This document shows, in pieces, positions 2,072-53,420 of a DNA stretch of 64,000 bases. Numbering within the stretch: position 1 is the first letter of the stretch; every line of letters begins with the position of its first letter. The DNA comes from Candidatus Uhrbacteria bacterium. Lineage in GTDB: Bacteria > Patescibacteriota > Patescibacteriia > UBA9934 > GWF2-40-263. The notes under the pieces were generated by a model that was not told where the DNA came from, did not search any database, and saw only the letters and a list, made by a program, of their open reading frames with translations. The stretch spans positions 95,073 to 159,072 of the forward strand of contig CAIMOJ010000046.1 in NCBI GenBank assembly GCA_903843045.1, in the 5' to 3' direction. A program made the position numbers and the translations under genes.

Positions 2072-2072
2072 T

Positions 2073-3758: not shown

Positions 3759-3962
3759 TCAGGACAACTCTTCGATGGCTTCAAGTATGGTTTCGAGCTC
3801 TTTGAATTCGCGCTCGATCTGGTTTTGAACCACCCTTGCCATCCACTTGAGCGACCTGATCTGCCCTTCCTTGCGTTCGCGCATCTCGATCAGGTTCTGG
3901 AGCTGCTGCTCCAGCGTAATCGGCACGACCCGCACTTTGGGCTTGCGCTCATTTGTAAACAT
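3759..3962 (-). CDS. Small coiled-coil protein (67 aa), phage module
   Basis: Strong SD (AGGAGG, 5-nt spacer) before the ATG at 3962. Lies directly downstream of the Sak4-like gene. High heptad/charge content. Confidence 0.45.
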   Translation of the reverse strand: MFTNERKPKVRVVPITLEQQLQNLIEMRERKEGQIRSLKWMARVVQNQIEREFKELETILEAIEELS

Positions 3963-3977
3963 AGGCTCCTCCTAGCG

Positions 3978-5069
3978 TTAGGCTTTACTCATCGAGGCAG
4001 CCGCCTCTGCGAGTTTCTTCTCCACGAACTCGTGCATCTTGTCGATGCCGCCTTCGAGTAACTTAGGATTCTTTCCGGTGATCTCGGTCCAGCTCGGCGT
4101 TGCGAATGCAAACTCGAGCGCGGCGATCTTGTTCTGCTTCATTTCCGCCGTCTGGCCGGGCCACACCTTCGTGAGATAGGCCTCGATCTTTTCAAGGGCG
4201 ATGTCGCGGCGCTTAAGATAGTCGCGCTTGTCGTCCTCCGTTTGAACGAGAGCCGATGCGTCCGCTTCCGCGACGGTAGACCGCTTCATCGGTTCGGAGA
4301 GAATGACCTCCATCGCCGGTTTGAATTGCTCGTAGGTCGGGTTCTCGAAGGACTTGCCATCGAGAAGCGTCGAGCGGTCTTTGATGATCACCGCGCGGCG
4401 CGAGACCTTCTTGATGTCGCCTCCCTCCATTTCCTGAATGCGCTCCATGAGGACCAGAAGGTCAGGCTCGTAAGCGGTTTCGCCTTCCACCTTCATTTTC
4501 ACGCCCGACTTGTAGATTTCGCGCTTGCCGGTTTCTTCGTTGATCTCGTTGTCATACTCGAAGCCAGCGCGGCCAGTCATGATGATGTGGTACGGATCGC
4601 GGACGAAGGGGTCGGAAAACTCCGCCTTCCACGTCGGCTTGATCACGCCCCAGTCCTGAAACTCGAGCCGTGTTCGGTTTTTCTTTTTCTTGTACGCCTC
4701 CGTGAAGTTTTCCCAGATGTGGCTGATCGAATCGACCAGCAGTACGTCGGAAAAACCATCGCGACAGCGTTTCATCGTCTCGGTGAGATCTGCGAGGCTG
4801 CGGCTTTCCTTCAAAACCGCCTCGATCCCATGCTCCGCGAACAGTGGTTTCAAGAACTTGGCTGACATTTCCGTATCGAAGATGACGATTGGCTTCGTCG
4901 AACCGATACGTTTGTGGAGCCCCACAGCGACAAGCGCGGCAGTGTAGGTTTTGCCCGTTCCGGCGAAGCCTTCGAACGCGGCTTTGAAGTACGGTTTTGT
5001 GTTCCCGATCGGGCTGAAGAAGTCGTCGAAGTTGTTTTTGTCGTAGGTCGTCGTTGGTTTGGTTGTCAT
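3978..5069 (-). CDS. Sak4-like RecA-family ATPase (phage recombination/replication AAA domain)
   Basis: 363 aa. Walker A GFAGTGKTYTAALVAV and Walker B VLLVDSISHIW. SD GAGAAAGGA before the ATG. Typical phage single-strand-annealing/recombination-module ATPase. Confidence 0.75.
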   Translation of the reverse strand: MTTKPTTTYDKNNFDDFFSPIGNTKPYFKAAFEGFAGTGKTYTAALVAVGLHKRIGSTKPIVIFDTEMSAKFLKPLFAEHGIEAVLKESRSLADLTETMKRCRDGFSDVLLVDSISHIWENFTEAYKKKKNRTRLEFQDWGVIKPTWKAEFSDPFVRDPYHIIMTGRAGFEYDNEINEETGKREIYKSGVKMKVEGETAYEPDLLVLMERIQEMEGGDIKKVSRRAVIIKDRSTLLDGKSFENPTYEQFKPAMEVILSEPMKRSTVAEADASALVQTEDDKRDYLKRRDIALEKIEAYLTKVWPGQTAEMKQNKIAALEFAFATPSWTEITGKNPKLLEGGIDKMHEFVEKKLAEAAASMSKA

Positions 5070-5355: not shown

Positions 5356-8055
<2,700 letters not shown>

Positions 8056-8111
8056 ATCGAGAGGATTATGCCGGTTTGCTGGGAAAACAGCAAGGGATGG
8101 CAAAACGGTCG

Positions 8112-21117: not shown

Positions 21118-21723
21118 TCAGGCGAGCGACGACGACAACAGCATGCGACGGCGCCCGCCAACGTGACGTTGGGGAACCTTCAGGTAGGGAGCATCATGCC
21201 GGCTGACATGAACCTTGCTGGCAAGATCGCACGCGCTCAGACAGCCCGAGCCAAACGACGTGCGAAGGAGGCATTCGGTAATGTCATCGATGCGCCTGCC
21301 AGCGAGATCCGAGCACGTCAGGTACAGGATGGCGTACTCCTCAAGCGACAGGAGACAGACGTCCGGCGTCAGTTCCTCGTGGCTTCTCATGCGATGCGGG
21401 CAGTTCACCGCGGCTTGAGAGAGGAACCAGTACCCGACGTCGCATGGCTCCCACCGGACCTTCTTCCGGGCCGCCTCGTCCGCGACGGTCCAGTCCCTGT
21501 CACAGCCGTGCGATGACATCCATGCCTCGTACGTCAGCTGCGACTCGGGAGGACGGTAGTTGAGGTCGAACTCCAGCCGCTCCCAGTTCATCAGATCCCG
21601 AACGGAGGCGGTCGGTTTCGGAACCGTCACGAACGGGTGGCCGAGACGACGGTAGTTCGCCTCGACGGCGGTGCGACGTTCCTCGGCGCGGTCACGAACG
21701 AATTCATCCAGCTGCGCTTCCAT
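21118..21723 (-). CDS. Hypothetical Cys-rich protein (9 Cys)
   Basis: 201 aa with high GC3 throughout. No recognisable family. Confidence 0.5.
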   Translation of the reverse strand: MEAQLDEFVRDRAEERRTAVEANYRRLGHPFVTVPKPTASVRDLMNWERLEFDLNYRPPESQLTYEAWMSSHGCDRDWTVADEAARKKVRWEPCDVGYWFLSQAAVNCPHRMRSHEELTPDVCLLSLEEYAILYLTCSDLAGRRIDDITECLLRTSFGSGCLSACDLASKVHVSRHDAPYLKVPQRHVGGRRRMLLSSSLA

Positions 21724-21858
21724 GAGCCTTCCAGGAAAATATGTCCGTTTCCGCGCGGGATGCGCGATCTTGGAACGATGGGAAGGTACCCGAAAATGAA
21801 GGATTTGTCAAGAAATCCCGGTTTGTGCGAACAAAAAAAGCCGACCGAGCATGGTCGA

Positions 21859-22107
21859 CTAGTGGACGCACTCATCCCAGGCTTTCGCCTGTATCTCCCG
21901 GGACCGCTGGAGCCGCAGGAGCATGACGAGCTCCTTCACGTGTTCGTTGCGACACCCTTCGAAGAATCGCCTGGACTCCTCGGAATCGTAGCCATACGCG
22001 TGTTCGCGCACGGAGTCGACGTGGATTTCCCACGGGACCTTCTTCTCCGCCTCATCGATCGCCTCGGCCAGCCTCTCATCCGACAGCCGTTCTTCCTGAT
22101 TTGCCAT
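21859..22107 (-). CDS. Hypothetical small acidic protein (82 aa)
   Basis: Canonical -35 TTGACA / N17 / -10 TATTGT and SD AGGAG upstream. Coding-like GC3. Confidence 0.55.
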   Translation of the reverse strand: MANQEERLSDERLAEAIDEAEKKVPWEIHVDSVREHAYGYDSEESRRFFEGCRNEHVKELVMLLRLQRSREIQAKAWDECVH

Positions 22108-22587: not shown

Positions 22588-23100
22588 TTACGGGAGATTG
22601 ATGTCAAGCGATTGGCCTGGTTTCAGGTCATGTTTCAGAGCAAACCCGGCGTTTACCTCCAAAACCTGGTTTATATCGCCGTTTGGCCGAACGCTTGGCG
22701 GATTCATGTCCGTCGAAACAGGCATGGACGGCTCGATTCCGACGACGATCCCGTCGCGCAGCCAGACGATGTCGATCGGAAACTTCATGTCCTTCATCCA
22801 AAACGCCGGGCGGGACAGGCCGTCGAGCATGAACAGCATCCCGCGGTCCGGGTCAAGAAAGATGTGGTCGGAAAGGCCGACGCGCCGTTCCTCGGGAGAA
22901 TCAGCGATTTCGACGGAGACGACGGTTCCGTCGGGGAAATGAACGGTCGGATGCGGGGATTTGAAGCGAATGAACAAGATGGCAATCGCGAGGACGAGGA
23001 AAACGGCGATAGCGACGACTGTCGCAGCTCGACGTTGCGCGACGACCACCCCTACCCCCTCCTCCCTATGAGGAGGGGAAACGATGTTATCGCGGATCAT
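22588..23100 (-). CDS. DUF192 (COG1430) family protein with N-terminal anchor
   Basis: 170 aa with the DUF192 signature FWMKDMKFPIDIVWL. The N-terminus carries the VSPPHREEGVGVVV peptide from mini-element copy 2. Confidence 0.7.
   Translation of the reverse strand: MIRDNIVSPPHREEGVGVVVAQRRAATVVAIAVFLVLAIAILFIRFKSPHPTVHFPDGTVVSVEIADSPEERRVGLSDHIFLDPDRGMLFMLDGLSRPAFWMKDMKFPIDIVWLRDGIVVGIEPSMPVSTDMNPPSVRPNGDINQVLEVNAGFALKHDLKPGQSLDINLP
23036..23083 (-). repeat. Intragenic palindromic mini-element, type I, copy 2 (in the DUF192 gene)
   Basis: The reverse complement reads GTTTCCCCTCCTCATAGGGAGGAGGGGGTAGGGGTGGTCGTCGCGC. Same orientation relative to the coding strand and same frame as copy 1. Confidence 0.8.
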
Positions 23101-24122
23101 ACCGGCTTATCCTGCTTCGACAGAACGATCGCGACGACGAGCATGAGGGCGACGATCGCGGCCAGGGCGATCAGCTTCTCCCTGCTCTGCAGGAACAGCG
23201 CCGAGCAGCCGAAGACGATGGCGACGAGATAGTAGGCCGCGACGATCTGGGTCTGGGTCCATCCGCGGTCGAGGAGGCGGTGGTGGAGATGCTTGCGGTC
23301 GCCCTTGAACACCTGGGACAGTCCTCCCGCTCGGAAGCGACGAACCATGATCCACACGACGTCGAGCATCGGGATCGCGAGGACTAACAATGCCGTCGCG
23401 AGCTTTCCGCCCGAGATCACCGCAAGCGTGCCGACGATAAAGCCGACGAACGTGCTGCCTCCCTCGCCGAGGAAGATCTTGGCGGGATGAAAGTTAAACG
23501 CAAGGAACCCGAGCATCGCGCCGAGGCAAACGGTCGCAAAGGCCGCGACGTCGGGCTGGAAATATGCGGCCGTCGAGGCGAGCAGCAGGACCATCAGCGT
23601 TCCAATCGACGAGACTCCGGTCGCGAGACCGTCGAGGCCGTCGAGGAACTTCGTCGTGTACATCACGACCATGAGCCAGACGAAGACGATGACGTTCGAC
23701 TGCCAGTGCTCGAGAAGGATGACGCCGCCGAACGGGTTCGTGAGCTTCGTGATCTCGATCCCGAGCGCGATCACGATGACGGCCGCGATGACCGGCGCGA
23801 CGATGGCGAACTTCGCGGAAAGGTTGAGCTTGTCGTCGAGGAACCCGCCGACCATGAGGACGGTGCCGCCGAGCAGGAAGCCGACGTAGTGGCGTACGGA
23901 GATGTCGCCGCCGGTCAGCAGATCCGTGCGAAGCAAGAGGACGTCGACGGTCGCGGCGATCGCGAGAAAGATTGCCAGCCCTCCGAGCAGCGGGATCGCC
24001 TTCGCATGGATCTTTCGTCCTCCCGTGGGCCGGTCGACGATCCCGAACCGGATCGCGACGGAACGGACGACGACCGTCGCGACCATCGACAGGAAGAACG
24101 CGCCAAAGAACCAGGAGATCAT
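23097..24122 (-). CDS. Glycosyltransferase family 4 phospho-sugar transferase (WecA/TagO/MraY-like)
   Basis: 341 aa polytopic protein with the D-D...LDGLDGLA motifs of the MraY/WecA superfamily. Confidence 0.85.
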   Translation of the reverse strand: MISWFFGAFFLSMVATVVVRSVAIRFGIVDRPTGGRKIHAKAIPLLGGLAIFLAIAATVDVLLLRTDLLTGGDISVRHYVGFLLGGTVLMVGGFLDDKLNLSAKFAIVAPVIAAVIVIALGIEITKLTNPFGGVILLEHWQSNVIVFVWLMVVMYTTKFLDGLDGLATGVSSIGTLMVLLLASTAAYFQPDVAAFATVCLGAMLGFLAFNFHPAKIFLGEGGSTFVGFIVGTLAVISGGKLATALLVLAIPMLDVVWIMVRRFRAGGLSQVFKGDRKHLHHRLLDRGWTQTQIVAAYYLVAIVFGCSALFLQSREKLIALAAIVALMLVVAIVLSKQDKPV

Positions 24123-26770
24123 AGTGCCGCCCCCTTCTCAATCTCAATCTTTCCTCCGTGATGCAGGACGATCGTGTCGCGACGATTCACGCGCCCTTCG
24201 AGAAGAGCGGTCGCGATCGCGTTGTCGACCTCCTCCTGGATAATGCGGCGCAACGGACGCGCGCCAAACTTCGGGTCGTACCCCTTCGTCGACAGCTCCG
24301 CGACCGCCTCGTCCGTCGCGCGGAACATAATCCCTTTTGCCTCGAGCCGCTCCGCGACCTGCGCGATCATGAGGTAGGTGATCTGTTGAACGTCGTCGGG
24401 CGTCAGCGGATGGAAGACGATGATCCCGTCGAAGCGGTTCAGCAGCTCCGGGCGGTACGTTCCGTGCAGTTCCTCCTCGATGAGGCGCGTCTTCATCTGG
24501 TCGGCCGGGACGCCCTCGGACACGGCCTTCTGAATGTACGCGCTCCCGGCGTTCGAGGTGACGATGATGATCGCGTTCGTGAAGTCGACGACGCGCCCGG
24601 CCGAATCGGTGAGGCGGCCCTCGTCGAACACCTGGAGGAACAGGTTGAGGATGTTCGGGTGCGCCTTCTCGAACTCGTCGAGCAGGATGAGCGAGAACGG
24701 ATTGCGTCGGACGGCCTCGGTCATCAGCCCCGCGTCCCCTCCCGGCGCGCCGATAAGCCGGTAGACGCTCGCCTGGTCCTGGTACTCGCTCATGTCGAAC
24801 CGCAGCATCGCGTTCTCCCCGCCGAAGTACGACGCCGCCACGGCCTTTGCGAGCGCGGTCTTTCCAACGCCGGACGGGCCGAGGAACAGGAAGGTCGAGA
24901 TGGGGCGGTTCTGCGCCCGAAGCTCGGTCCGCGCGCGACGCAGTGCCGAAGCCACGGCCTTCACGGCCTCCTCCTGGCCGATCACGCGCGCGTGGATCGT
25001 CGACTCGAGCGTCAGCAACTTGTCCTTCTCATCGGTGGATACCTGCGTCATCGGGATACCGGTCTTTGCCGCGAGGACCGTTTCCACGTCGTCTCCCGTG
25101 ACGATCGCGTTCTCCCCTCGGGCCTTGAACGCGACGAGCGCGGCCTCCTTGCAGACGCCGATCGCCTTCTTCGGAAGGTAGGAGGCGTGGACGTATCGGT
25201 CAGAGAGAACGACGGACCGCTCGACCGCGTCATACGTAAAGATGACGTTCTGATCGTATTCGATCGCGCCGACCTTCGACTCGACGATGCGGATCGCCTC
25301 GGTCGTATCGGGCTCGGGAACGTTCACGACCTCGAAGACGCGCGAGATCGGCGACCGCTCGACGGTTTGCGCGTATGCCTCGGGGGTCGTGGTCGCGATC
25401 ACGAACGCCATTCGGCGCGTGAGGGCGTCCACGAGGAGCGAGGCGAGTTCCGACCCCGTCTCGACGAGCTGCTCGATGTTCTGCATGACGAGTACGACGT
25501 TCCCCGAGCGTCCGGAGTCGTTCAACACGCCGATAAGTCTCTGCTGCGCCTCGGACGCGTCGACTCCCGAGATGACCGCCGACAGCACGACGCTCACGAG
25601 GCGACGGTCCTGTAGCATCTTCGGAACGTCCTCGCGCACCATCCGTTCGGCCAGCCCGGAAATGAGCGCGGTCTTTCCCACGCCCTCCGGACCCACGAGC
25701 AGAACGCTGCGTCCGCCCCCCTCGATGACGCGCAATAGTTCCTCCATCTCCGCGTCGCGCCCGATGAGCATCGGCAGGCGTCCTCCCACCGCCGCGGTCG
25801 TAAGATCCTCGGAAACGGAATCGAGCGCCGGCGTCTGGATGGCGGTCATGGAGCGGTTCATCGGCCCGGTGGGCTTGAACGCGGCGGCGCGGCGGTACCT
25901 GTCGTACCGCTCCCGGAGCGCGTCCGTGATGCGGATCCATTCGACGACGTTCGAGAGCCGCGCCTCGTCGACCTTCACGTCGTACAGGAGCTCCTGGACG
26001 AACGGGTCGCGACGGTATGCCTCGTAGAATAGTTCGATAGGGGAAACGGACGATCGGTCACGAACGACCGCGTTTTGGAACGCCGCGATCAGGGTCTGCT
26101 CGGCCTCCTCGGAAAAGGTCGGCCCGGGGCCGGTCGGAACGGAAAGCAGGCGGCGGTTGAGCGCGTCGCTTACCGCGTCGAACCGAAGGCCGAGGCGGCC
26201 GAAGACGACCGGAACGTCGCCGTGCGACAACGATGAGATGAACAGGTGCAGCGGCTGGATCGATGCGTGACCGAACGAAGAGGCGAGCTTGTACGCGTCC
26301 TCGACCGTCTTCATCGCGTCCGCGTGGAACAGATCGGCAACGTTGACGCGCTCGCCCTCCGGGATCGTCGAGACAACGCCAGGCACCGCTTCCCCGTGCG
26401 AAATCACCGGCATCTCAACTTTCTTTCGCGTTACCTCGCACATCCGTTGGAAGACAAACGAGGATGACAGCACGAACAGCGAAAACGAGAGCCCCACGAA
26501 GCTCGGACGGAATACCGCGCGCACGAATGCCGTCATTCCACTGGGAATCACGTACAGGTACATCCCCCATCCGAACCAGAGGAAAAATAGGAATGCCGCG
26601 GCCAGGATTCCTGCGCTGATGGCTGTCTGAACCTTTTGTGCCAGCCGCTTCTTCGCGAGCGACGCGTCGTCTAGCCGTTCCGACCAAACAAAAGCCTTCC
26701 CGTCGATGAGGACGCCGGCGCGGGGGGTCGAAGGGATCGGGGGGTTCGAAGGGATCATGTTAAAAAACAA
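24119..26770 (-). CDS. ClpC/ClpA-like two-NBD AAA+ chaperone with N-terminal transmembrane anchor
   Basis: 883 aa. Two predicted TM helices, then two Clp_N repeats, NBD1 (GPEGVGKTAL), a short linker and NBD2 (GPSGVGKTALAKA). The start region contains a GGTCGAAGG-type tandem repeat encoding IPSNPPIPSTP. Confidence 0.85.
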   Translation of the reverse strand: MFFNMIPSNPPIPSTPRAGVLIDGKAFVWSERLDDASLAKKRLAQKVQTAISAGILAAAFLFFLWFGWGMYLYVIPSGMTAFVRAVFRPSFVGLSFSLFVLSSSFVFQRMCEVTRKKVEMPVISHGEAVPGVVSTIPEGERVNVADLFHADAMKTVEDAYKLASSFGHASIQPLHLFISSLSHGDVPVVFGRLGLRFDAVSDALNRRLLSVPTGPGPTFSEEAEQTLIAAFQNAVVRDRSSVSPIELFYEAYRRDPFVQELLYDVKVDEARLSNVVEWIRITDALRERYDRYRRAAAFKPTGPMNRSMTAIQTPALDSVSEDLTTAAVGGRLPMLIGRDAEMEELLRVIEGGGRSVLLVGPEGVGKTALISGLAERMVREDVPKMLQDRRLVSVVLSAVISGVDASEAQQRLIGVLNDSGRSGNVVLVMQNIEQLVETGSELASLLVDALTRRMAFVIATTTPEAYAQTVERSPISRVFEVVNVPEPDTTEAIRIVESKVGAIEYDQNVIFTYDAVERSVVLSDRYVHASYLPKKAIGVCKEAALVAFKARGENAIVTGDDVETVLAAKTGIPMTQVSTDEKDKLLTLESTIHARVIGQEEAVKAVASALRRARTELRAQNRPISTFLFLGPSGVGKTALAKAVAASYFGGENAMLRFDMSEYQDQASVYRLIGAPGGDAGLMTEAVRRNPFSLILLDEFEKAHPNILNLFLQVFDEGRLTDSAGRVVDFTNAIIIVTSNAGSAYIQKAVSEGVPADQMKTRLIEEELHGTYRPELLNRFDGIIVFHPLTPDDVQQITYLMIAQVAERLEAKGIMFRATDEAVAELSTKGYDPKFGARPLRRIIQEEVDNAIATALLEGRVNRRDTIVLHHGGKIEIEKGAAL

Positions 26771-27137
26771 TCAGCCCGACCGCGTGGTAGAGCAAGCCGA
26801 GAATGGCCATCGGAAGGGCAAGGACGTAGACGGCAAGCCCGACGAACGCGGCCGAGGACCAGACGGCAACCGCGCTGCCGCGCACGAAGATCATCGCGAA
26901 ACGCACGCCGAAGCTGATGGCGCGCCCGCTCCATTCCGTGTCGCCGTACATCGGAACAAACAGGTTCCTTACCCACACCCCAAGCGAGAAGCGCTCGGAG
27001 GCGTCCCGGACGAATGTTCGGAACCATGCGGTCATGATGGCAAGGCCGCGCGTGTACCACCACGCCGGAAGCGAGACGATGCCGTCGAATAGTTCCGTGA
27101 GGACGAGACGCAAAACCATATGCGTACAGTTTACCAT
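26760..27137 (-). CDS. Hypothetical small membrane protein
   Basis: Start MVNCTHMVLRLV (or M at 27119), 3 TM helices. Overlaps the clp start by 11 nt. Putative -10 TAAACT upstream. Confidence 0.4.
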   Translation of the reverse strand: MVNCTHMVLRLVLTELFDGIVSLPAWWYTRGLAIMTAWFRTFVRDASERFSLGVWVRNLFVPMYGDTEWSGRAISFGVRFAMIFVRGSAVAVWSSAAFVGLAVYVLALPMAILGLLYHAVGLIVF

Positions 27138-27186
27138 AAATCGATTGCATTGACAGAAGCGCGATAATCGCGTATTCTGCCGGTTC

Positions 27187-27783
27187 GTGCGCGGATCCTC
27201 CGAGCACAACCCAGAGGTTTTCATGCCCCTCCCCGCCTTCTCCCCCTGCCAGCACTTCATACAGGCCGTCCTCCCCGGTCTGATCCACGCGGACGCTTCG
27301 CTCACGCACGTGGTGGCAAGTTACAACCGGATCGGATCCAGAAGGCCCGCGATGCCCGCGGAGATTCTCCGAGCCGACGGGCTGACCTCATTGCTGTTTT
27401 CAGAGCTGACGCTTGGACGGATCCAGACGGACGTCGTCCGGGTCGTTCGGAAGGAATCCGACCCCCTGGTCCCGATGATCGCGACCGTCTACGTCGGCGG
27501 ACGACAGTTTGTCGAGATGATGCAGCTCGTCGTCCTCCTTCGCGAGGCTCGTCCGGACGCCAGGATCGTCGCCATCGCCTGTCCGTGCATCACGACGGAC
27601 CAGGAGGAGACCGTCAGGCGCGGCATCGAGGCCGGCAAGCTCACGGCGGCGGCCTGGAGCGATTGCGGCGGAACGAACATGATCCGCGACATCCATCGCG
27701 CGGTCGAAAAAAACTGGATCTCCGACGAATCGGACATCCAGTTCTCTCACCACTCGACGAATTCCGTCGACCTTGGCGCCTAG
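27187..27783 (+). CDS. Hypothetical protein
   Basis: 198 aa (start possibly MPLPAFSP at 27223). Divergent from the 26760 gene. The opposite-strand ORF is a shadow of tgt. Confidence 0.4.
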   Translation: MRGSSEHNPEVFMPLPAFSPCQHFIQAVLPGLIHADASLTHVVASYNRIGSRRPAMPAEILRADGLTSLLFSELTLGRIQTDVVRVVRKESDPLVPMIATVYVGGRQFVEMMQLVVLLREARPDARIVAIACPCITTDQEETVRRGIEAGKLTAAAWSDCGGTNMIRDIHRAVEKNWISDESDIQFSHHSTNSVDLGA

Positions 27784-27785
27784 CC

Positions 27786-28901
27786 TTAGGCGCTTTTTTC
27801 TTTTCTCAGTTCCTCCATCAGCCTCAGGTAAAACCGCAGGTTGTGGATCGTCGCCAGCCGCATGGCCAGCATCTCGCCGACCGAGAACAGGTGTCGGAGA
27901 TACGCCCGCGAGACGGTCTTGCACGTCGAGCAGTCGCACCACGCGTCCACCGGCGACTCGTCGAACGTACTGGCCTCGCCGGTCACGTTGAGCTTCTTGT
28001 AGAAATCGGTGGGCCGCTTCGAGAAGTCGATCGTCGTCGGATCCTGAGCCCAGGTGAACAGCGTGCCGTGCCGCGCGTTTCGCGTCGGGATCACGCAGTC
28101 GAACATGTCCACGCCGAGCGAGACGTAATGCACGATCTCCTCCGGCATCCCCCCGCCCATGAAATACCGCGGCTTGTCCGCCGGCATCTTGTCGCAGATG
28201 AACTCCGCGATCCGATACGCGTCCTCCCGCTTCTCCCCGACGGACAGTCCGCCGATCGCATACCCGTCGAACCCGATCTCGACGAGCCCCTCGACCGACT
28301 TCTCGCGAAGGTCCTCGTGCGTCCCGCCCTGGACGATCCCGAACAGATTCTGTCCTGGCGGCAGCGCATCCTTGCACCGCCTCGCCCATCGCAGCGACAG
28401 CTCCATCGCCTGCTCGTACCGCTCGCGCGTCGAGTCGCCGGCCGCGACGTCGTCGAACTGCATCACGATGTCGGACCCGATCGCCGCCTGCATCTGCATC
28501 GACAACTCCGGAGTCAAATGGATCCGCTTCCCATCGATGTGCGACTGGAACGTCACGCCATCCTCGTTCGTCTTGTTCATCTTCGACAGGCTGAAGACCT
28601 GATAGCCACCTGAGTCCGTGATGATCGGCTTGTTCCAACCCATCAGGTGATGGAGACCTCCAAGTTTCTCCATTCCCTCCAACCCCGGACGCAGCAACAG
28701 ATGATACGTGTTCGACAAAACGATCGACGCGCCAAGCGCTTCGACATCCGCCGACGACAGCGTCTTCACCGCCCCCTTGGTCGCGATCGGCATAAAGCAG
28801 GGCGTCTCGACGATTCCATGTGGAAGGGTCAGGCGTCCGCGTCGGGATTTTCCGTTGGTTGAGAGAAGTTCGAACACAGAGAATTTCAAATTGATCAACA
28901 T
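27786..28901 (-). CDS. tgt: Queuine tRNA-ribosyltransferase (tRNA-guanine transglycosylase)
   Basis: 371 aa with the TGT signature (RRGRLTLPHG...ETPCFMP) and zinc site CDCSTC...H. Confidence 0.92.
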   Translation of the reverse strand: MLINLKFSVFELLSTNGKSRRGRLTLPHGIVETPCFMPIATKGAVKTLSSADVEALGASIVLSNTYHLLLRPGLEGMEKLGGLHHLMGWNKPIITDSGGYQVFSLSKMNKTNEDGVTFQSHIDGKRIHLTPELSMQMQAAIGSDIVMQFDDVAAGDSTRERYEQAMELSLRWARRCKDALPPGQNLFGIVQGGTHEDLREKSVEGLVEIGFDGYAIGGLSVGEKREDAYRIAEFICDKMPADKPRYFMGGGMPEEIVHYVSLGVDMFDCVIPTRNARHGTLFTWAQDPTTIDFSKRPTDFYKKLNVTGEASTFDESPVDAWCDCSTCKTVSRAYLRHLFSVGEMLAMRLATIHNLRFYLRLMEELRKEKSA

Positions 28902-32191: not shown

Positions 32192-32677
32192 TTATTTGTT
32201 TACGATGACCTTCCCCGGCCTCACGATCTTGCCTCCCATCTTCCATCCGCGCGCGACGACCTCGACGATCGCGTTCGGGGCGACCTTCTCGTCCGCTCGC
32301 TCGCCGACCGCGTCGTGCAGGTTCGCGTCGAACGGGTCTCCGACTTCGCCGAACGGTTCCACCCCCATCTGGAGAAGGACCTCGTCGAGCTGGGTCTGGA
32401 CGAACAGGATGCCCATGAGCCAGTTCTTCAGCTTCGCGTCGATCCCCTCCGGGACGAACTTCACGGCGGTGTCGAAGTTGTCGATCACCGGGATGATCCG
32501 GCTTGCCGCGTCGGCCGTGGCCGCCGCGCGCATCTCGACGCGCTCGCGTCCCTGCTCCTTCTTCAGGTTGTCGTAATCCGCGAGGGCGCGTTTCCATCCC
32601 GCAAGATACTCGGCTGCCTTGTCCTCGACAGGTGTCTCGACAGTCGGCTCGACCGTCACGTCTTGTTCGTCGCTCAT
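32192..32677 (-). CDS. grpE: Nucleotide exchange factor GrpE
   Basis: Start at MSDEQDVTV (ATG 32677), overlapping the hrcA stop. GrpE coiled-coil plus beta domain. Confidence 0.9.
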
Positions 32678-33387
32678 AGAGAATCGTCTAGAATTTCTTG
32701 AATGTCCGTAACGAGTCCGAGGTTCCTCCCATAGTCCATCCGCATGGGGCCGATCAATCCGAGGATGCCAATCTGTCCGTTTGGCAGCCGACACTTCACC
32801 ATCACCGCGCTCATGTCCTTGCCGAACGGGTTCTCGCTGCCGATGAGAACCTGCGGCTCGCTCGTCATGCGGTCGAACACCTCGCCGACCAGCTGGTCGA
32901 AGCGGTCGAGCATCCGGGAAAGTTCCTGGACGACCACGATGTCGCTGAAGTCGGGTTTGCCCACGAGGTTGGCGACGCCCGAGTAATAGCTGTTGCGCGG
33001 ATCGACCGCGACGATCGCCATCTCGCCCGACAGCTCCATGAGCGTCCGGGCCAGGTCGCGCATGTCGGGCTCTCCGGCTCCGGTCGAGCGGCCGTCCGCG
33101 ACCGACTTCCGGAGCTGGTCGCTGGCCGCGTGTCCGGGCTCCGCGGACACGAAGTTCTGGAGATAGTAGACGTACGCCCTCTCGGTGGGTATCCGTCCGG
33201 CCGACGTGTGCGGCTGGACGATGAATCCCGCATCCTCGAGCGCGGCCATCTCGCTGCGGATGGTGGCGGGCGACACGTTGCTCCCCGACAGCTCCGCGAC
33301 CAGGCGAGACCCGACCGGTTGCGCCGATCGGATATACTCGTCCACGATCGCCTTCAAAATGGCCTCTTGCCGTGGTTCCAGACGCAT
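32674..33387 (-). CDS. hrcA: Heat-inducible transcription repressor HrcA (short form)
   Basis: 237 aa. N-terminal winged helix ILKAIVDEYIRSAQPVGSR...SPATIRSEMAALE. Confidence 0.9.
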   Translation of the reverse strand: MRLEPRQEAILKAIVDEYIRSAQPVGSRLVAELSGSNVSPATIRSEMAALEDAGFIVQPHTSAGRIPTERAYVYYLQNFVSAEPGHAASDQLRKSVADGRSTGAGEPDMRDLARTLMELSGEMAIVAVDPRNSYYSGVANLVGKPDFSDIVVVQELSRMLDRFDQLVGEVFDRMTSEPQVLIGSENPFGKDMSAVMVKCRLPNGQIGILGLIGPMRMDYGRNLGLVTDIQEILDDSL

Positions 33388-33397
33388 AAAATCAAAA

Positions 33398-33424
33398 TTA
33401 GCACTCTCATTGTACGAGTGCTAA
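33398..33424 (-). promoter_or_regulatory. CIRCE operator (TTAGCACTC-N9-GAGTGCTAA) with embedded -10
   Basis: Perfect consensus inverted repeat 11 nt upstream of the hrcA ATG. -35 TTGACA at 33431-33436 and -10 TACAAT inside the N9 spacer. Confidence 0.9.
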
Positions 33425-44225: not shown

Positions 44226-45524
44226 TCAAGCCGCTTCCACCCACGCCCCGTACTGGCGAACGAGCAGTTCCTCCGCCCGCAGCGGCTCGGCCATCAGGTC
44301 CTTCACGACCTTTTCCATCCGTGCGCTCTGCGAACCCTTCACGAGCACGATGTCGCCCTTCTTCACGTTGAAGTCCAGCCATCTCCCCGCCTCGACCGAC
44401 GTCGCGAAGAACTCGACGTTGTGCTCGTCCATCCCGGCCTCGATGGCGCCGCGGCGCGTGTCGCGGCCCTCCTCGTTCACGCAGACGAGAATGTCCGCGA
44501 CCTCGGCGGCGCGCATGCCGAGAAGACGGTGCTCATTTTCGGAGTAGCGGCCGAGCTCGGCCATCTTGCCGAGGACGGCGATGCGACGCGCGTTTTCGTC
44601 GGGAGAGAAAAATCGAAGGACCTCTAGGGCGGAAGCCATCGAGGCGGGCGCGGCGTTATAGGAATCGTCGAGGAGGAGCGTCTCCTTGATGCCCGGCAGC
44701 GGGCGCATGCGTCCGGCCTGGGGTTGGAGCGTTCGGAGCGCGGCGACGATCTCGGAGAGCGGCATGCCGAAGTGTCGTCCGACCGCGGCGGCCGCGAGGG
44801 CGGCGCAGGCCTGGCCGCGGCCGAGGAGGTTTGGCAGGGAGACCTCGGCGCGCTCGTCGCCAACGACGAGGTCGAAGTGGATCTCGCAGAACGGCTCGTC
44901 GGACTGGCAGCGGAGAACGTCGTGCGTCTCGACGTGATAGTTTTCGGCGCGGACGTCGAGGCCTTCCGAGAACCCGTAGGTGACGACGGTTCCGTCGCCT
45001 CGTTCCGCAATCACGAGCGGGTCGTCGCCATTCAAAATCGCGACTCCTCCCCTCTTGAGATGACGGACGATTCCCGCCTTCTCGTGGGCGAGCGCCTCGA
45101 TCGAATCGAAATATTCCGCGTGGACCGGCGAGACGGCCGTGAAGACGGCCACGTCGGGCGGGGCGATCTTGCAGAGCGCGTCCATGTCGCCGGGACGGTC
45201 GATGCCGTACTCGAGCGCGAGGAGGTTCGGATACTTTGCGCGCGGGAGCAGCCAGAGCGCCTTGGCCCGGGCAAGGATGCCCAGCCAGCCCAGAATCGAC
45301 GAACCCGCGGTCTTTTCGCCGACGATCGTCAGCGGGACGCCGAACTCGTTGTTGTAGTTCTCCTCCGGAGACCGAACGACAAACCGACCGTCCAGGACGG
45401 CCGCGATCGCGTTTCGCGTCGAAGTCTTTCCGACCGACCCCGTCACGGCGACGACGGTCGGACGGTAGCGACGAAGGGTCATGCGGGCATGGAAGGCGAG
45501 CAACGATTGGATGAGATATTTCAT
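44226..45524 (-). CDS. murF: UDP-N-acetylmuramoyl-tripeptide--D-alanyl-D-alanine ligase MurF
   Basis: Start at MKYLIQSLLAF (ATG 45524). Mur ligase P-loop VTGSVGKTST. Confidence 0.9.
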   Translation of the reverse strand: MKYLIQSLLAFHARMTLRRYRPTVVAVTGSVGKTSTRNAIAAVLDGRFVVRSPEENYNNEFGVPLTIVGEKTAGSSILGWLGILARAKALWLLPRAKYPNLLALEYGIDRPGDMDALCKIAPPDVAVFTAVSPVHAEYFDSIEALAHEKAGIVRHLKRGGVAILNGDDPLVIAERGDGTVVTYGFSEGLDVRAENYHVETHDVLRCQSDEPFCEIHFDLVVGDERAEVSLPNLLGRGQACAALAAAAVGRHFGMPLSEIVAALRTLQPQAGRMRPLPGIKETLLLDDSYNAAPASMASALEVLRFFSPDENARRIAVLGKMAELGRYSENEHRLLGMRAAEVADILVCVNEEGRDTRRGAIEAGMDEHNVEFFATSVEAGRWLDFNVKKGDIVLVKGSQSARMEKVVKDLMAEPLRAEELLVRQYGAWVEAA

Positions 45525-45544
45525 AGGGTTATGGGGTCCGGAGG

Positions 45545-45592
45545 GTCGAAGGTTCGAAGAGCCGCGGTTCTTCGAACCTTCGACCCTATCCT
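45545..45592. repeat. GGTCGAAGG-family palindrome (18-bp stem hairpin) between ftsI and murF
   Basis: GGGTCGAAGGTTCGAAGAGCCGCGGTTCTTCGAACCTTCGACCC. The same core motif occurs at 10452-10500 and 26718-26760. Confidence 0.5.
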
Positions 45593-45605
45593 CCCTTCTC
45601 ACCCC

Positions 45606-47372
45606 TCAGAGAGGCCGCTCCGGCGGCACTTCGAAATATTGAAGAAGAAACTTCGCGATGTCCCCGAACAGCGGCGCGGCGGACGACTCGGCCCAGGTGA
45701 CGTCGCGCGGATGGTCGATGCGGACGATCATGACGAACCGCGGATTGTTCACCGGGCCGAACCCCGCGAACGAGCCGATCGTCGAGTCAAGCTCGTACCC
45801 GCCGCCGTCCGAACGCGCGACCTGCGCCGTGCCGGTCTTTCCGCCGATGTAATACCCCGGCACGCCCGCCTTCTTTCCGTGCCCGTTTTCGACGACGGAG
45901 ACAAGCATCGCTCCCAGCAGGCTCGCGGTCTTCGGCTGGACGACGCGGCGCACCTCCTGCGGAACGCGCGGATCGTGCGTCCCGTCCGGCTTCACCACGT
46001 CCTCGACGACATACGGCCGCATCAGCATCCCGTTGTTCGCAAGCGCGCCGTACGCCGCCACCATCTGAACCGGCGTGACCGTGATCCCCTGCCCGAACGA
46101 CGCGGTCGCCGCGTAAATCTCCTGTCCGATATCGAGCGACGCGATCGTACCCGACGACTCGGTTTCCATCTCCAATCCCGTTCGGACGCCGAACCCGAAG
46201 TTCTTCACGTACTCGACGAACTTTTCCATTCCCATCTGTCGCATCGAGTACACCATGCCCGTATTCACCGATTCCTCCAGCACGGTCGTCATGTCGATCA
46301 GCCCGTACACCTTGTTCTGCGCGTTCCGGATCGGCCTCGGCCATCCGCTCACCATCACCTCGCCCGTGTCCGTGAACGTGGTCGTGGGCGTCACGGCCCC
46401 GGTATCGACGGCCGCGGCCATCGTGATTGCCTTGAAGATGGATCCCGGCTCGTAGGAGTTGAAGATGGCAGGATTGTTGAAGGAATCGGTGGAAGGAGCA
46501 TTGCGATAATCGCCAGGCTCAAAGTCTGGCGACCCGCACATGGCAAGAATCTTGCCCGTTTTCGGCTCCATGACGATCACGCTTCCGCCGTCCGCCCCGT
46601 GCCGCGCCACGGCCTCCTTCAGCTTGGTGCACGCCTCGTACTGAATCGTGCGGTCTATCGTCAATACCACGTCGGACCCGTTCACCGCCGGCTCGATCGA
46701 GCGCTCCCCGACCGCGATCAAGCGCCCCGCGATGTCGCGCTCGCTGCGTAGGAACCCGGGAGTACCCGTCAGCTCCTGGTTGAAGTATCCCTCGATCCCG
46801 TACTTTCCGGTCATGGTCCCGTCCTCCGACGACCCGACGAACCCCGTCACCTGCCCTCCGAGCCCGGACTCGGGATACAGGCGTCCTTCCTCCCGGATAA
46901 AGTAGATACCGGGTAACTTCAGCGCGATGAGTTCCGAGAGCTTGTCCTCCTTCACGTTGCGCATGATCGGCTCGTAGGGGTCGGTATGCACGTCGAGGTG
47001 CGTCGCAATCGTCTTGACCTTGTCCGCGTCGAACCCGAACAGCGCCCCGAGCTTGTCGGCCGTCCCGATCGCATCCACGACCTTTCGCGGGTCGGCATAC
47101 ACGAACGAAACCTGCTGAACCGTCGCGATCGGAACGAGCGAGCCGTCCTTCATGTCATGGATCAGGATATCGCCGCGGCTCGGGAACAGTTCCTTGAAAA
47201 TCTCATGCTGGCCCGAGGCAAGCGCCACGTACGTGTCGTGGTCGAGCACCTGGAGCACGAACAGCTTCAGCGTGATCGCCACCGCAAACGCAACCATTCC
47301 GTAACGAATGGCATTCATGCGCCACTCGTTGTTTCCCTGCGACAGTGAGGATCCTCGTCGGTGTCGTGTCAT
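45606..47372 (-). CDS. ftsI: Peptidoglycan D,D-transpeptidase FtsI/PBP2-like (class B PBP)
   Basis: Start at MTRHRRGSS (ATG 47372). N-terminal TM, PBP dimerisation domain, and transpeptidase motifs SIFK, SVN and KTGT. Confidence 0.9.
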   Translation of the reverse strand: MTRHRRGSSLSQGNNEWRMNAIRYGMVAFAVAITLKLFVLQVLDHDTYVALASGQHEIFKELFPSRGDILIHDMKDGSLVPIATVQQVSFVYADPRKVVDAIGTADKLGALFGFDADKVKTIATHLDVHTDPYEPIMRNVKEDKLSELIALKLPGIYFIREEGRLYPESGLGGQVTGFVGSSEDGTMTGKYGIEGYFNQELTGTPGFLRSERDIAGRLIAVGERSIEPAVNGSDVVLTIDRTIQYEACTKLKEAVARHGADGGSVIVMEPKTGKILAMCGSPDFEPGDYRNAPSTDSFNNPAIFNSYEPGSIFKAITMAAAVDTGAVTPTTTFTDTGEVMVSGWPRPIRNAQNKVYGLIDMTTVLEESVNTGMVYSMRQMGMEKFVEYVKNFGFGVRTGLEMETESSGTIASLDIGQEIYAATASFGQGITVTPVQMVAAYGALANNGMLMRPYVVEDVVKPDGTHDPRVPQEVRRVVQPKTASLLGAMLVSVVENGHGKKAGVPGYYIGGKTGTAQVARSDGGGYELDSTIGSFAGFGPVNNPRFVMIVRIDHPRDVTWAESSAAPLFGDIAKFLLQYFEVPPERPL

Positions 47373-47373
47373 A

Positions 47374-53398: not shown

Positions 53399-53420
53399 AC
53401 GCCAACATGCTATCACGCCG

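What the first reader, a model, noticed from the sequence alone, without database searches (positions are those of the whole stretch)
24119..26770. Membrane-anchored ClpC-like AAA+ unfoldase in an operon with a GT4 phospho-sugar transferase and a DUF192 protein
Clp ATPases are normally soluble. This one has two N-terminal TM helices ahead of the Clp_N repeats and both NBDs. It is translationally coupled (4-nt overlaps) to a WecA/MraY-like transferase and a DUF192 protein, preceded by a small membrane protein. This suggests an envelope-associated protein quality-control or extraction system.
Basis: partly seen in the sequence, partly recalled or inferred. Interest (0 to 1): 0.5.

Follow-up and report, generated by a model that had tools for sequence, protein, structure and literature searches.

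The report
Membrane-anchored Hsp100 ATPase lacking pore tyrosines
A Clp/Hsp100-type ATPase in a candidate-phyla-radiation bacterium really is tethered to the membrane and always sits next to a tiny membrane protein, but it lacks the parts that Clp unfoldases use to grip proteins and dock a protease, so it belongs to an apparently undescribed branch of a well-known chaperone family and is not a membrane-bound ClpC.

Summary
It has an N-terminal hydrophobic hairpin and overlaps by ATGA a WecA/TagO-type transferase gene, which in turn overlaps a DUF192 gene. A 119-aa membrane protein gene lies directly upstream.

The hairpin is conserved in 117/120 close homologues and 91/92 distant cluster representatives. 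The family occurs in at least 585 species genomes, and every one that carries an informative name is Patescibacteria.

The "ClpC-like unfoldase" reading fails on several points:
- There is no M-domain and no ClpP-docking loop.
- Ring 1 has lost its Walker-B DE and its pore-loop Tyr across the family.
- Ring 2 keeps every catalytic motif, but its GYVG pore loop is deleted.

The invariant partner is the small tail-anchored protein, found upstream in 83/83 loci that could be assessed. The transferase is adjacent in 58/74 loci, so it is frequent but not obligate.

Best reading: a ClpP-independent, membrane-tethered ATPase driven by ring 2 that acts with its small partner and probably does not thread polypeptides. 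Its substrate is unknown. I found no description of it in the searched literature. I rate it a new variant of a known kind.

The parts
26760..27119 (-). Small partner gene, 119 aa. It has an approximately 85-aa cytosolic helical hairpin with invariant PxWWY and PMYG motifs and one strong C-terminal TM segment (aa 92-110). Its stop lies 1 nt before the ATPase start codon.
   Evidence: Sequence. Alignments. AF2 pLDDT 93.9 with helices 2-43 and 63-118. Hessa dG -0.53. Found upstream of the ATPase gene in 76/80 GTDB loci, where the 4 misses have no upstream DNA, and in 7/7 distant loci. No Pfam, NCBIfam or PADLOC family. No significant Foldseek match.
24119..26758 (-). Membrane-anchored Hsp100-family ATPase gene, 879 aa from ATG 26758.
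26678..26719 (-). N-terminal cytosolic beta-hairpin (aa 14-27, AGVLIDGKAFVWSE). In most distant relatives a DnaJ-type CxxCxGxG x2 zinc finger precedes it; that finger is absent here.
   Evidence: AF2 strands 15-18 and 21-24. 63/92 representatives have at least 2 CxxC in the first 90 aa, and 58 have CxxCxGxG.
26549..26629 (-). TM1 (aa 44-70).
   Evidence: KD 1.97, dG -0.66. Family median dG -1.48, below 0 in 85% of 208 members.
26444..26506 (-). TM2 (aa 85-105), marginally hydrophobic. It is probably the second leg of a helical hairpin.
   Evidence: KD 1.64, dG +3.8. Family median +2.1. AF2 helix 87-111.
25973..26350 (-). Clp_N-like helical N-domain (aa 137-262).
   Evidence: One Clp_N repeat at the Pfam threshold. 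PF02861 is precomputed for most homologues. AF2 models helices in this region.
25799..25888 (-). Family-specific, nearly invariant linker AAFKPTGxMNRxMTxxxTPxLDxxSEDLT (aa 291-320).
   Evidence: K295, P296, R302, T305, P310 and D313 are invariant in A1. This is the lowest-pLDDT stretch of the model, 68-70. It supplied the pattern for the genome scan.
25124..25771 (-). NBD1/D1 (aa 330-545), degenerate. Walker A is GPEGVGKT. Walker B is VVLVMQN (Q-N in place of D-E) at 25475-25498. The pore loop ISGVDASEAQQ has no aromatic residue, at 25541-25573.
   Evidence: Alignment to ClpC. Family columns. Representatives: DE in 2/92, GK[ST] in 41/92.
24404..25036 (-). NBD2/D2 (aa 575-785), with its catalytic motifs intact. 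These are Walker A GPSGVGKT, Walker B LILLDEF, sensor-1 TSN and the Arg in RPELLNRFD. The pore loop is shortened to IGAPGGDAGL (24725-24754) and there is no ClpP loop (24458-24544).
24155..24403 (-). D2-small domain with sensor-2 GARPLRR.
   Evidence: PF10431, E 1.2e-22. Invariant G832, A833, R834, P835, L836 and R838.
23097..24122 (-). WecA/TagO-type polyprenyl-phosphate HexNAc-1-P transferase gene, 341 aa, with an ATGA overlap onto the ATPase stop.
   Evidence: PF00953, E 2.9e-29. TIGR02380 WecA 131 bits against MraY 66 bits, both below their cutoffs. DD96, DGLDG161 and HLHH278, with 8 hydrophobic windows. Junction sequence.
22588..23100 (-). DUF192 gene, 170 aa, with an N-terminal signal-anchor (aa 26-44) and an ATGA overlap onto the transferase stop.
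   Evidence: PF02643, E 4.1e-25. dG -4.86. Junction sequence.

Best explanation
This is a member of a Patescibacteria-wide, so far undescribed subfamily of class-I Hsp100/Clp ATPases. A helical hairpin holds it at the cytoplasmic face of the membrane, and it works together with an obligate small tail-anchored membrane protein encoded immediately upstream.

Shown here:
- The architecture is [Zn finger in most relatives, lost here] - beta-hairpin - TM hairpin - Clp_N-like domain - D1 - D2. It is collinear with ClpA, with no M-domain.
- D1 keeps the Walker-A Lys but has lost the Walker-B Asp-Glu and the pore-loop Tyr.
- D2 keeps Walker A and B, sensor-1, the Arg finger and sensor-2, and is the best-conserved part of the protein.
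- There is no ClpP-docking loop.
- In this clade the D2 GYVG pore loop is deleted.

Inferred:
- The protein forms the usual hexamer, with the N-domain/D1 face against the membrane.
- D1 is a ring that binds nucleotide but does not hydrolyse it, and serves assembly.
- D2 is the only motor.
- The gripping tyrosines are dispensable across the family. The ATP cycle therefore most likely drives a conformational or assembly switch, or short-range remodelling, acting on or through the small partner and nearby membrane proteins. Processive threading or delivery to a protease is less likely.
- The recurrent, non-obligate coupling to a WecA/TagO-type initiating transferase and an extracytoplasmic DUF192 protein points to envelope glycopolymer biogenesis as the likeliest area of action. 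The substrate is not identified.
For: Family and anchor:
- 120/120 best hits are full-length relatives or fragments of them. Those with an informative organism name are Uhrbacteria or Patescibacteria, apart from two labelled Binatia and Eisenbacteria.
- At least 585 species genomes encode a relative.
- 192 clusters at 50% identity match the N-terminal profile at E<=1e-30.
- Hydrophobic N-terminal segments occur in 117/120 and 91/92 members. TM1 dG has a median of -1.48.

Architecture:
- The NCBIfam ClpA model aligns in one stretch (aa 149-860), whereas the ClpB, ClpV, ClpK and ClpG models split in two. All score far below their cutoffs.
- The alignment to ClpC lacks ClpC residues 400-465, the M-domain, and shows the D1 and D2 pore-loop and Walker-B changes.
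- These changes are conserved family-wide.
- Mean column identity is 0.79 for the D2 large domain, 0.66 for D1 and 0.34 for the TM region.
- The AF2 model has pLDDT 89.3. Foldseek's best matches are ClpC and ClpB, with TM-score about 0.8 over D1-D2.

No ClpP loop.

Partner:
- It is upstream in every assessable locus.
- It lies 1 nt upstream of the ATPase start here, overlaps it by 4 nt in L081 and is 2-3 nt away in L085 and L087.
- The partner model is confident, pLDDT 93.9.

Transferase and DUF192 linkage. The linkage persists where the upstream genes differ (L081, L083, L085).

Precedent: Torsins are relatives of Clp/Hsp100, are membrane-associated and lack aromatic pore loops. That absence is taken to argue against threading (PMC5425593).
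Against: - No experiment or expression data are available.
- Hexamer formation, orientation and contact with the partner are inferred only.
- 9/92 distant representatives keep a canonical GAPPG[YF] D2 loop. The ancestral protein may therefore have threaded, and non-aromatic loops might still translocate weakly.
- TM2 is only marginally hydrophobic. The anchor could be one TM plus an interfacial helix, or a monotopic hairpin.
- Much of the neighbourhood (tgt, dnaK, dnaJ, rplU, recR) is syntenic across the same genomes. Part of the transferase/DUF192 adjacency may therefore be inherited gene order and not functional coupling. In 7/74 loci the transferase is absent from the flank.
- I could not determine whether these genomes also encode a soluble ClpB or ClpC.
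Confidence: 0.5

Rival explanations
1. One reading: a membrane-anchored ClpC-like unfoldase that extracts envelope proteins and hands them to ClpP, working like FtsH but built from Clp parts.
For: The geometry fits, since the N-terminal anchor would place the D1 entrance at the membrane as in FtsH. A ClpP gene exists in at least one relative's contig (L081). The hrcA-grpE-dnaK-dnaJ operon lies just upstream.
Against: There is no ClpP-docking tripeptide or loop in the query, and GF occurs in only 3/177 family members, while the ClpC controls score positive. There is no M-domain for MecA-type adaptors. Both pore-loop tyrosines are missing. No CIRCE element lies near this operon.
Confidence: 0.05
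2. A protease-independent threading machine. D2 alone pulls membrane or aggregated proteins through the pore, like Msp1/ATAD1 or ClpB, using non-aromatic loops. The small protein acts as adaptor or substrate receptor.
For: The D2 catalytic set is intact and highly conserved. 9/92 representatives keep GAPPG[YF]. Most relatives carry a DnaJ-type zinc finger, a motif known from a module that binds unfolded proteins (the link to function is from my own knowledge). The membrane-facing orientation fits extraction.
Against: The canonical aromatic residue is lost in about 90% of cluster representatives and the loop is shortened by 4-5 residues in this clade. D1 contributes no pore-loop aromatic either. 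There is no M-domain for cooperation with DnaK.
Confidence: 0.22
3. A dedicated four-gene envelope module in which the ATPase and its partner specifically control or assemble the WecA/TagO-type transferase and DUF192, for example by tuning the first committed step of a wall glycopolymer.
For: ATGA overlaps join the three downstream genes here. The transferase is adjacent in 58/74 loci and within the flank in 67/74, including distant loci with different upstream genes. DUF192 is present in 51/65.
Against: The transferase is absent from the flank in 7/74 loci and separated by inserted genes in 9/74. Adjacency falls from 13/13 to 10/18 as ATPase identity drops below 50%. Region-wide synteny inflates the counts. 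There is no direct evidence of interaction.
Confidence: 0.2
4. An annotation artefact: a soluble Clp ATPase whose true start lies after the hydrophobic region.
For: In-frame Met residues exist at aa 106 and 116. TM2 is only marginally hydrophobic.
Against: The upstream 105 codons are conserved as protein down to about 45% identity, with positionally conserved hydrophobic segments in more than 200 relatives. AF2 is confident there. The upstream gene's stop abuts ATG 26758.
Confidence: 0.01
5. An anti-phage defence ATPase, similar to the ClpB-like DolB of Dodola.
For: PADLOC DolB and PDC-M37B models match at E 1e-36 to 1e-37.
Against: The matches cover only the generic D2 AAA core (aa 572-747). 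The partner, transferase and DUF192 have no PADLOC hit. The gene sits in a fixed housekeeping location in hundreds of species, unlike defence islands.
Confidence: 0.01

Closest known systems
ClpB / Hsp104 (D2 in particular)
   Same: Two AAA+ rings and a Clp_N-type N-domain. The D2 and D2-small domains give the best NCBIfam score (TIGR03346, 524 bits). There is no ClpP loop. The segment after sensor-1 is short and helical as in ClpB; that comparison rests on my recollection of the E. coli ClpB sequence.
   Different: The score is far below the cutoff (1232). There is no M-domain, so the known DnaK-coupling element is missing. Both pore-loop tyrosines are missing, D1 Walker B is dead, and the protein is membrane-anchored.
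ClpA
   Same: Collinear N-D1-D2 architecture without an M-domain. The TIGR02639 model aligns in one stretch over aa 149-860.
   Different: 435 bits against a cutoff of 993. There is no IGL-type ClpP loop, D1 is degenerate, the pore loops are lost, and there is a TM hairpin.
ClpC / ClpC1
   Same: These are the best PDB sequence and fold matches (E 1e-122, Foldseek TM-score about 0.8 on D1-D2). This is also the name public annotations give.
   Different: It lacks the M-domain (ClpC residues 400-465), the (V/L/A)GF ClpP loop, the KYRGEFE and GYVG pore loops, and the D1 Walker-B DE.
Torsins (eukaryotic ER and nuclear-envelope AAA+ proteins)
   Same: Torsins are relatives of Clp/Hsp100 D2, are membrane-associated through an N-terminal hydrophobic segment, lack aromatic pore loops and function with membrane-embedded partner proteins (PMC5425593).
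   Different: Torsins have a single ring, lack their own Arg finger and act in the lumen. Here there are two rings, the D2 Arg finger is retained, and the body must be cytoplasmic. The resemblance is functional analogy only; homology beyond the shared Hsp100 ancestry was not tested.
FtsH and Msp1/ATAD1
   Same: N-terminally membrane-anchored AAA+ rings whose entry face looks at the membrane. Msp1 acts on tail-anchored proteins, and the partner here is tail-anchored.
   Different: They belong to the classical AAA clade, not Hsp100. They have a single ring with an essential aromatic pore loop. FtsH also carries a protease domain.
NSF D2, p97 D1 and Pex1/6 D1 (non-catalytic assembly rings)
   Same: One of the two stacked rings binds nucleotide, but hydrolysis and substrate gripping are lost or not required. 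It serves oligomerisation. This is from my own knowledge.
   Different: A different AAA clade. In those proteins the other ring keeps its aromatic pore loops.

Membership tests
Class-I Hsp100/Clp ATPases (two-ring superfamily) | Two AAA+ modules (D1 of the AAA type with AAA_lid_9, D2 of the AAA_2 type) followed by the ClpB_D2-small domain. | tested here: met
   PF07724 at 3.6e-50, PF10431 at 1.2e-22, PF17871 at 1.3e-6. Foldseek to ClpC and ClpB at E 1e-57 to 1e-43.
Class-I Hsp100/Clp ATPases (two-ring superfamily) | Clp_N double-repeat N-domain. | tested here: inconclusive
   One repeat scores 21.3 bits against a cutoff of 20.7. PF02861 is listed for most homologues. AF2 gives an all-helical domain at aa 140-260. 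The second repeat was not detected by sequence.
Class-I Hsp100/Clp ATPases (two-ring superfamily) | Aromatic pore-loop-1 residues: KYRGEFE in D1 and GYVG in D2. | tested here: not met
   D1 reads GVD-ASEAQQ. D2 has a 5-residue deletion giving GAPGG-----DAG. No aromatic residue in the family columns. 8/92 (D1) and 9/92 (D2) of distant representatives keep one.
ClpC (ClpC/MecB, ClpC1) | A short coiled-coil M-domain inserted in the D1 small domain. | tested here: not met
   ClpC residues 400-465 have no counterpart: query 541-547 joins directly. The model has no coiled-coil insertion.
ClpC (ClpC/MecB, ClpC1) | A ClpP-docking loop with a (V/L/A)GF tip in D2. | tested here: not met
   The loop is 29 aa against 35. 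It is modelled as helix - 3-residue turn - helix and has no hydrophobic-G-F/L tip. GF occurs in 3/177 members. Controls: AGF in S. aureus ClpC and VGF in B. subtilis ClpC.
ClpA | Equivalog score and an IGL ClpP loop. | tested here: not met
   TIGR02639 scores 435 against a cutoff of 993, and NF008263 scores 338 against 1350. No IG[LF] loop.
ClpB | Equivalog score and a long M-domain for DnaK coupling. | tested here: not met
   TIGR03346 scores 524 against a cutoff of 1232 and aligns in two stretches, consistent with a missing M-domain. No M-domain.
ClpV (TssH), ClpK, ClpG | Equivalog or exception-model score. | tested here: not met
   425 against 885, 423 against 1900, and 416 against 1900. 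No T6SS genes were seen in the flanks examined.
Active AAA+ module (D1) | Walker A GK[ST] and Walker B hhhhDE. | tested here: not met
   The query has GVGKT but VVLVMQN. In the family the Lys is kept in 113/117, the next residue is T or S in only 51/117, the Walker-B first position is P/T/Q/E and the second is D/N. DE occurs in 2/92 representatives.
Active AAA+ module (D2) | Walker A, Walker B DE, sensor-1 Asn, Arg finger and sensor-2 GARPL. | tested here: met
   G627, G630, V631, G632, K633 and T634 are invariant, as are D694, E695, T734, S735, N736, R775, G832, A833, R834, P835 and L836.
Integral or anchored membrane protein | At least one hydrophobic segment able to insert, conserved in position, with the positive-inside rule satisfied. 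| tested here: met
   TM1 dG -0.66, family median -1.48. Conserved in more than 200 relatives. Lys/Arg clusters lie on both cytoplasmic flanks, read from the sequence. TMHMM and DeepTMHMM were not available. Whether TM2 spans the membrane is uncertain.
WecA/TagO-type PNPT (the neighbouring transferase) | Glycos_transf_4 fold with DD, DGxDG and H(I/L)HH motifs; closer to WecA than to MraY. | tested here: met
   PF00953 at 2.9e-29. WecA model 131 bits over nearly full length against MraY 66 bits, both below their equivalog cutoffs. DD96, DGLDG161 and HLHH278. The role of HIHH in UDP-GlcNAc recognition is from my own knowledge. Sugar specificity was not tested.
Torsin | A single D2-like ring, no own Arg finger, activation by LAP1 or LULL1. 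| tested here: not met
   Two rings are present and the D2 Arg (R775) is invariant. Only the analogy holds: membrane association and no aromatic pore loops.

The most novel reading that the evidence does not exclude
Patescibacteria have turned an Hsp100 double ring into a non-threading, membrane-embedded ATP switch, a bacterial counterpart of the Torsin principle. A dead D1 ring holds the hexamer together and D2 cycles. The work is done on an obligate tail-anchored partner whose invariant PMYG-tipped cytosolic hairpin engages the ring. The output controls the initiating WecA/TagO-type enzyme, and with it wall glycopolymer synthesis, in these minimal-genome episymbionts.
Probability: 0.15. Interest if true: 0.8.

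Novelty: new variant of a known kind. Interest (0 to 1): 0.58.

Why it matters
Hsp100/Clp proteins are textbook soluble threading machines. This is a lineage-wide branch, present in hundreds of species of a very large and poorly understood bacterial radiation. It is integral to the membrane, has a catalytically dead first ring, has repeatedly shed the pore-loop tyrosines thought to be indispensable, and cannot dock ClpP.

If it is functional, as strong conservation of D2 and of the gene pair implies, it offers a natural experiment on what an AAA+ double ring can do without gripping loops. It would also add a new component to the envelope biology of Patescibacteria.

Practically, the public annotation 'ATP-dependent Clp protease ATP-binding subunit ClpC' is misleading for this family.

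Tried and rejected
- **Misassigned start.** Rejected on conservation of the N-terminal 105 aa.
- **ClpP partner.** Rejected on the loop test with positive controls. My first regex was too strict, because it missed the AGF of S. aureus ClpC. The broadened one mainly picks up charged-G-V/I tripeptides, most at the helix end (RGI/RGV) and some in the short turn (EGV here), which are not a docking tip.
- **Heat-shock regulon membership through CIRCE.** The only CIRCE element in the window is upstream of hrcA.
- **Defence system.** Rejected.
- **Small partner as a duplicate of the ATPase's own TM hairpin.** hhalign probability 0.7%, so no homology.
- **Fold search for the small partner.** No significant hit, only generic helical hairpins. 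The afdb50 library was unavailable.
- **Pfam and NCBIfam for the partner.** No family.
- **Is the transferase the genome's MraY?** No mraY follows murF in the window, but the WecA-over-MraY score and the HLHH motif favour the WecA/TagO type.
- **Literature.** Six full-text searches found no description of a membrane-anchored bacterial Hsp100. A search on DUF192 gave nothing functional.
- **Not achieved.** I had no access to model coordinates to measure the pore.

Full report
**What is there.** The window is a GC-rich (about 61%) stretch of a Candidatus Uhrbacteria (Patescibacteria/CPR) genome. The closest public contig is JBAXQK010000019.1, with 91-97% protein identity across the locus.

The following genes lie on the minus strand, in order:
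- hrcA (preceded by a perfect CIRCE element), grpE, dnaK, dnaJ and tgt
- after a 666-nt gap that holds a plus-strand ORF, a 119-aa membrane protein gene (26760-27119)
- the Clp-like gene (24119-26758)
- a Glycos_transf_4 transferase gene (23097-24122)
- a DUF192 gene (22588-23100)
- rplU

The Clp-like ORF most likely starts at ATG 26758. That codon is 1 nt after the TAA of the small gene and matches the annotated start of the 95%-identical homologue. Both downstream junctions are ATGA overlaps with AG-rich stretches ahead of them.

**The membrane anchor is real.** Two hydrophobic segments (aa 45-63 and 85-103) stand out. On the Hessa scale TM1 is -0.66 and TM2 is +3.8. The next-lowest window (+6.3) lies between them, and nothing outside the N-terminal region falls below +7.

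The segments are positionally conserved in 117 of the 120 best database hits, and the other three are fragments lacking the N-terminus. They are also conserved in 91 of 92 full-length representatives of 50%-identity clusters retrieved with a profile of the N-terminal 350 residues. Family-wide, TM1 has a median dG of -1.48 and TM2 of +2.1.

AF2 (mean pLDDT 89.3) models a short beta-hairpin (aa 15-24), helices 31-70, 75-83 and 87-111, and then a helical N-domain. Lys/Arg clusters flank the hairpin on both cytoplasmic sides. Most distant relatives carry a cytoplasm-type zinc finger ahead of TM1. Because the ATPase body needs ATP, both ends must be cytoplasmic. The anchor is therefore a two-helix hairpin or a monotopic hairpin. 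A misassigned start is excluded.

**It is not ClpC-like in mechanism.** Residue-level alignment to S. aureus and B. subtilis ClpC shows five differences:
- The M-domain (ClpC 400-465) is absent.
- The D1 pore loop AGTKYRGEFEERL is replaced by SGVD-ASEAQQRL.
- The D1 Walker B ILFIDEL is replaced by VLVMQNI.
- The D2 pore loop GAPPGYVGHDDGGQLTE is replaced by GAPGG-----DAGLMTE.
- The ClpP-docking loop (..FAGFGG.. or ..YVGF..) has no counterpart.

All of these are family traits.
- Among 117 close relatives, the Walker-B positions are P/T/Q/E followed by D/N.
- The Walker-A Lys is kept (113/117) but the following Thr/Ser is not (51/117).
- No column of either pore loop is aromatic.
- Among 92 distant representatives, DE occurs in 2, a D1 aromatic in about 8 and a canonical D2 G[YFW] in 9.

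By contrast, D2 keeps invariant Walker A, Walker B DE, sensor-1, Arg finger and sensor-2 residues. It is also the most conserved part of the protein, with mean column identity 0.79 against 0.66 for D1 and 0.34 for the anchor.

The region where the ClpP loop would sit is 29 aa, against 35 in ClpC. It is modelled as two helices with a 3-residue turn and carries no hydrophobic-Gly-Phe/Leu tip, whereas the ClpC control fragments score positive.

No NCBIfam equivalog is reached for ClpA, ClpB, ClpV, ClpK or ClpG. The ClpA model is the only one that aligns in a single stretch, which fits an N-D1-D2 architecture without an M-domain. By fold the protein is an ordinary Hsp100 protomer.

**The family.** Every informatively named organism among these, and among sampled clusters, is Uhrbacteria, Parcubacteria or 'Patescibacteria group'. 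The many 'uncultured Gammaproteobacteria' titles belong to one MAG series and share the same synteny.

The N-terminal profile finds 192 clusters at 50% identity with E<=1e-30. Typical lengths are 870-940 aa. About two thirds of the representatives start with a DnaJ-type CxxCxGxG x2 zinc finger. The window's clade has lost the cysteines but keeps the following beta-hairpin.

Ancestrally the architecture was therefore Zn finger - TM hairpin - Clp_N - degenerate D1 - active D2. The D2 tyrosine was present in a minority and lost in most.

**The invariant partner.** The small upstream gene is found by tblastn in 76 of 80 loci, and the four misses have less than 300 nt of upstream DNA. A profile HMM finds it at E 1e-27 to 1e-44 directly upstream in all seven more distant loci. 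In several of these the other upstream genes are different, for example mraZ-rsmH, MBOAT genes or a DsbA-like gene. The two reading frames abut or overlap.

The protein has invariant PxWWY..G and PMYG motifs. It folds, with pLDDT 93.9, as one long helical hairpin (helices 2-43 and 63-118). It has a single strong TM segment at its C-terminus (aa 92-110), so it is tail-anchored with an approximately 85-aa cytosolic hairpin.

It has no Pfam, NCBIfam or PADLOC family, no significant structural neighbour, and is not homologous to the ATPase's own N-terminus.

**The transferase and DUF192.** The transferase is of the WecA/TagO type. The WecA model scores 131 bits over nearly its full length against 66 for MraY, and the DD, DGLDG and HLHH motifs are present. 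DUF192 has a signal-anchor and is presumably extracytoplasmic.

The transferase is within 400 nt downstream in 58 of 74 assessable loci, further downstream in 9 and absent from the flank in 7. Adjacency falls from 13/13 at 55% or more ATPase identity to 10/18 below 50%. DUF192 is present in 51/65.

The linkage survives in some distant loci with different upstream genes (L083, L085). It is lost in others (L084, L086, L087). Because the whole region is syntenic in these genomes, I treat the coupling as suggestive and not as proof of one system.

**Operon boundaries.** No terminator-like site separates the four genes. A sigma-70-like site lies at the end of the DUF192 gene, ahead of rplU. The plus-strand ORF and its terminator between tgt and the small gene uncouple the module from the CIRCE-controlled dnaK operon in this genome.

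**Mechanism.**

*Shown:* a membrane anchor; a D1 that cannot hydrolyse in the canonical way and has no gripping residue; a complete D2 ATPase; no ClpP interface; no M-domain; and an obligate small membrane neighbour.

*Inferred:*
- The protein forms a hexamer with the N-domain/D1 face toward the membrane.
- D1 acts as a nucleotide-binding assembly ring, as in NSF D2 and p97 D1 (own knowledge).
- D2 is the sole motor.
- The canonical aromatic paddle is dispensable across the family while the ATPase site is under strong constraint. The conserved function is therefore unlikely to be processive threading.
- Torsins are the precedent for a membrane-associated relative of Hsp100 that lacks aromatic pore loops, works with membrane partners and is judged unlikely to thread (PMC5425593).

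I therefore favour an ATP-driven switch or remodelling complex made with the small partner, probably acting in envelope glycopolymer biogenesis. A D2-only extraction machine is the main rival. The substrate is unknown.

**Novelty and verdict.** The protein is in public databases under generic ClpC, Clp or 'AAA family ATPase' names. Six full-text searches found no paper that describes a membrane-anchored bacterial Hsp100, its degenerate motifs or its partner. That library does not cover all journals.

It is a new variant, in effect a subfamily, of a known kind.

Noticed in passing
window 33398-33424: A perfect CIRCE inverted repeat (TTAGCACTC-N9-GAGTGCTAA) lies 10 nt upstream of hrcA (32674-33387, minus). 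It heads an hrcA-grpE-dnaK-dnaJ(-tgt) array. It is the only match in the window at up to 3 mismatches, and 0 are expected by chance.
   Followed up: yes
window 27187-27783 (+): A 198-aa ORF on the opposite strand is wedged between tgt and the small membrane gene and ends in a terminator-like hairpin (27775-27794). It has no Pfam or PADLOC hit. In most relatives tgt and the small gene are only about 50 nt apart, so this looks like a lineage-specific insertion.
   Followed up: partly
window 27128-27156 (-): Read by eye: CTGTCA-17 nt-TGgTAAACT, ending 8 nt before the ATG of the small gene. This could be the module's own promoter, giving a nearly leaderless transcript. It scores 8/12 and so falls below the scan tool's threshold.
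   Followed up: no
window 25799-25888 (ATPase aa 291-320): The linker motif AAFKPTGxMNRxMTxxxTPxLD is nearly invariant across the family yet is the least confident part of the AF2 model (pLDDT 68-70). A conserved flexible segment of this kind may be a docking or pseudo-substrate element. It remains unexplained.
   Followed up: partly
family members P0101, P0106, P0115, P0176 and others (N-termini): About two thirds of the 50%-cluster representatives carry an N-terminal DnaJ-type CxxCxGxG x2 zinc finger ahead of TM1. The window's Uhrbacteria clade has lost the cysteines.
   Followed up: yes
window 217-5069 (-): The left end of the window holds phage-like genes: a terminase large-subunit RNaseH-like domain (217-1665), a ParB_N-N6/N4 DNA methylase fusion (2073-3506) and an AAA_24 protein (3978-5069). 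GC is lower here (0.55-0.57). This may be a prophage remnant next to secA (5356-8103).
   Followed up: no
window 44226-47396 (-): A dcw fragment, ftsI followed by a murF-like ligase, is not followed by mraY. The next 2.5 kb hold no recognisable PNPT gene.
   Followed up: partly
window 21118-22107 (-): Downstream of rplU there is no rpmA (L27). Instead there are an 82-aa ORF (21859-22107), followed by a terminator-like hairpin (21860-21839), and a 201-aa ORF (21118-21723). Neither has a Pfam hit.
   Followed up: no
L002, L007, L008, L013 and other loci from genome contigs: Many genomes titled 'uncultured Gammaproteobacteria bacterium' (binchicken and SRP co-assembly MAGs) carry the same Patescibacteria-type locus and synteny. 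The record titles appear to be placeholder or wrong taxonomy.
   Followed up: no
L085 2195-4705: In a Parcubacteria relative, an MBOAT (DltB-like) gene and a 351-aa neighbour lie a few kb upstream of the small-protein/ATPase/transferase trio. This is a further hint of a wall-polymer context, but from a single locus.
   Followed up: no
window 55964-59173 (-): A large (1069 aa) class II, B12-dependent ribonucleotide reductase with ATP-cone and TSCPD domains. A corrinoid adenosyltransferase-NUDIX fusion lies nearby at 52415-53416.
   Followed up: no
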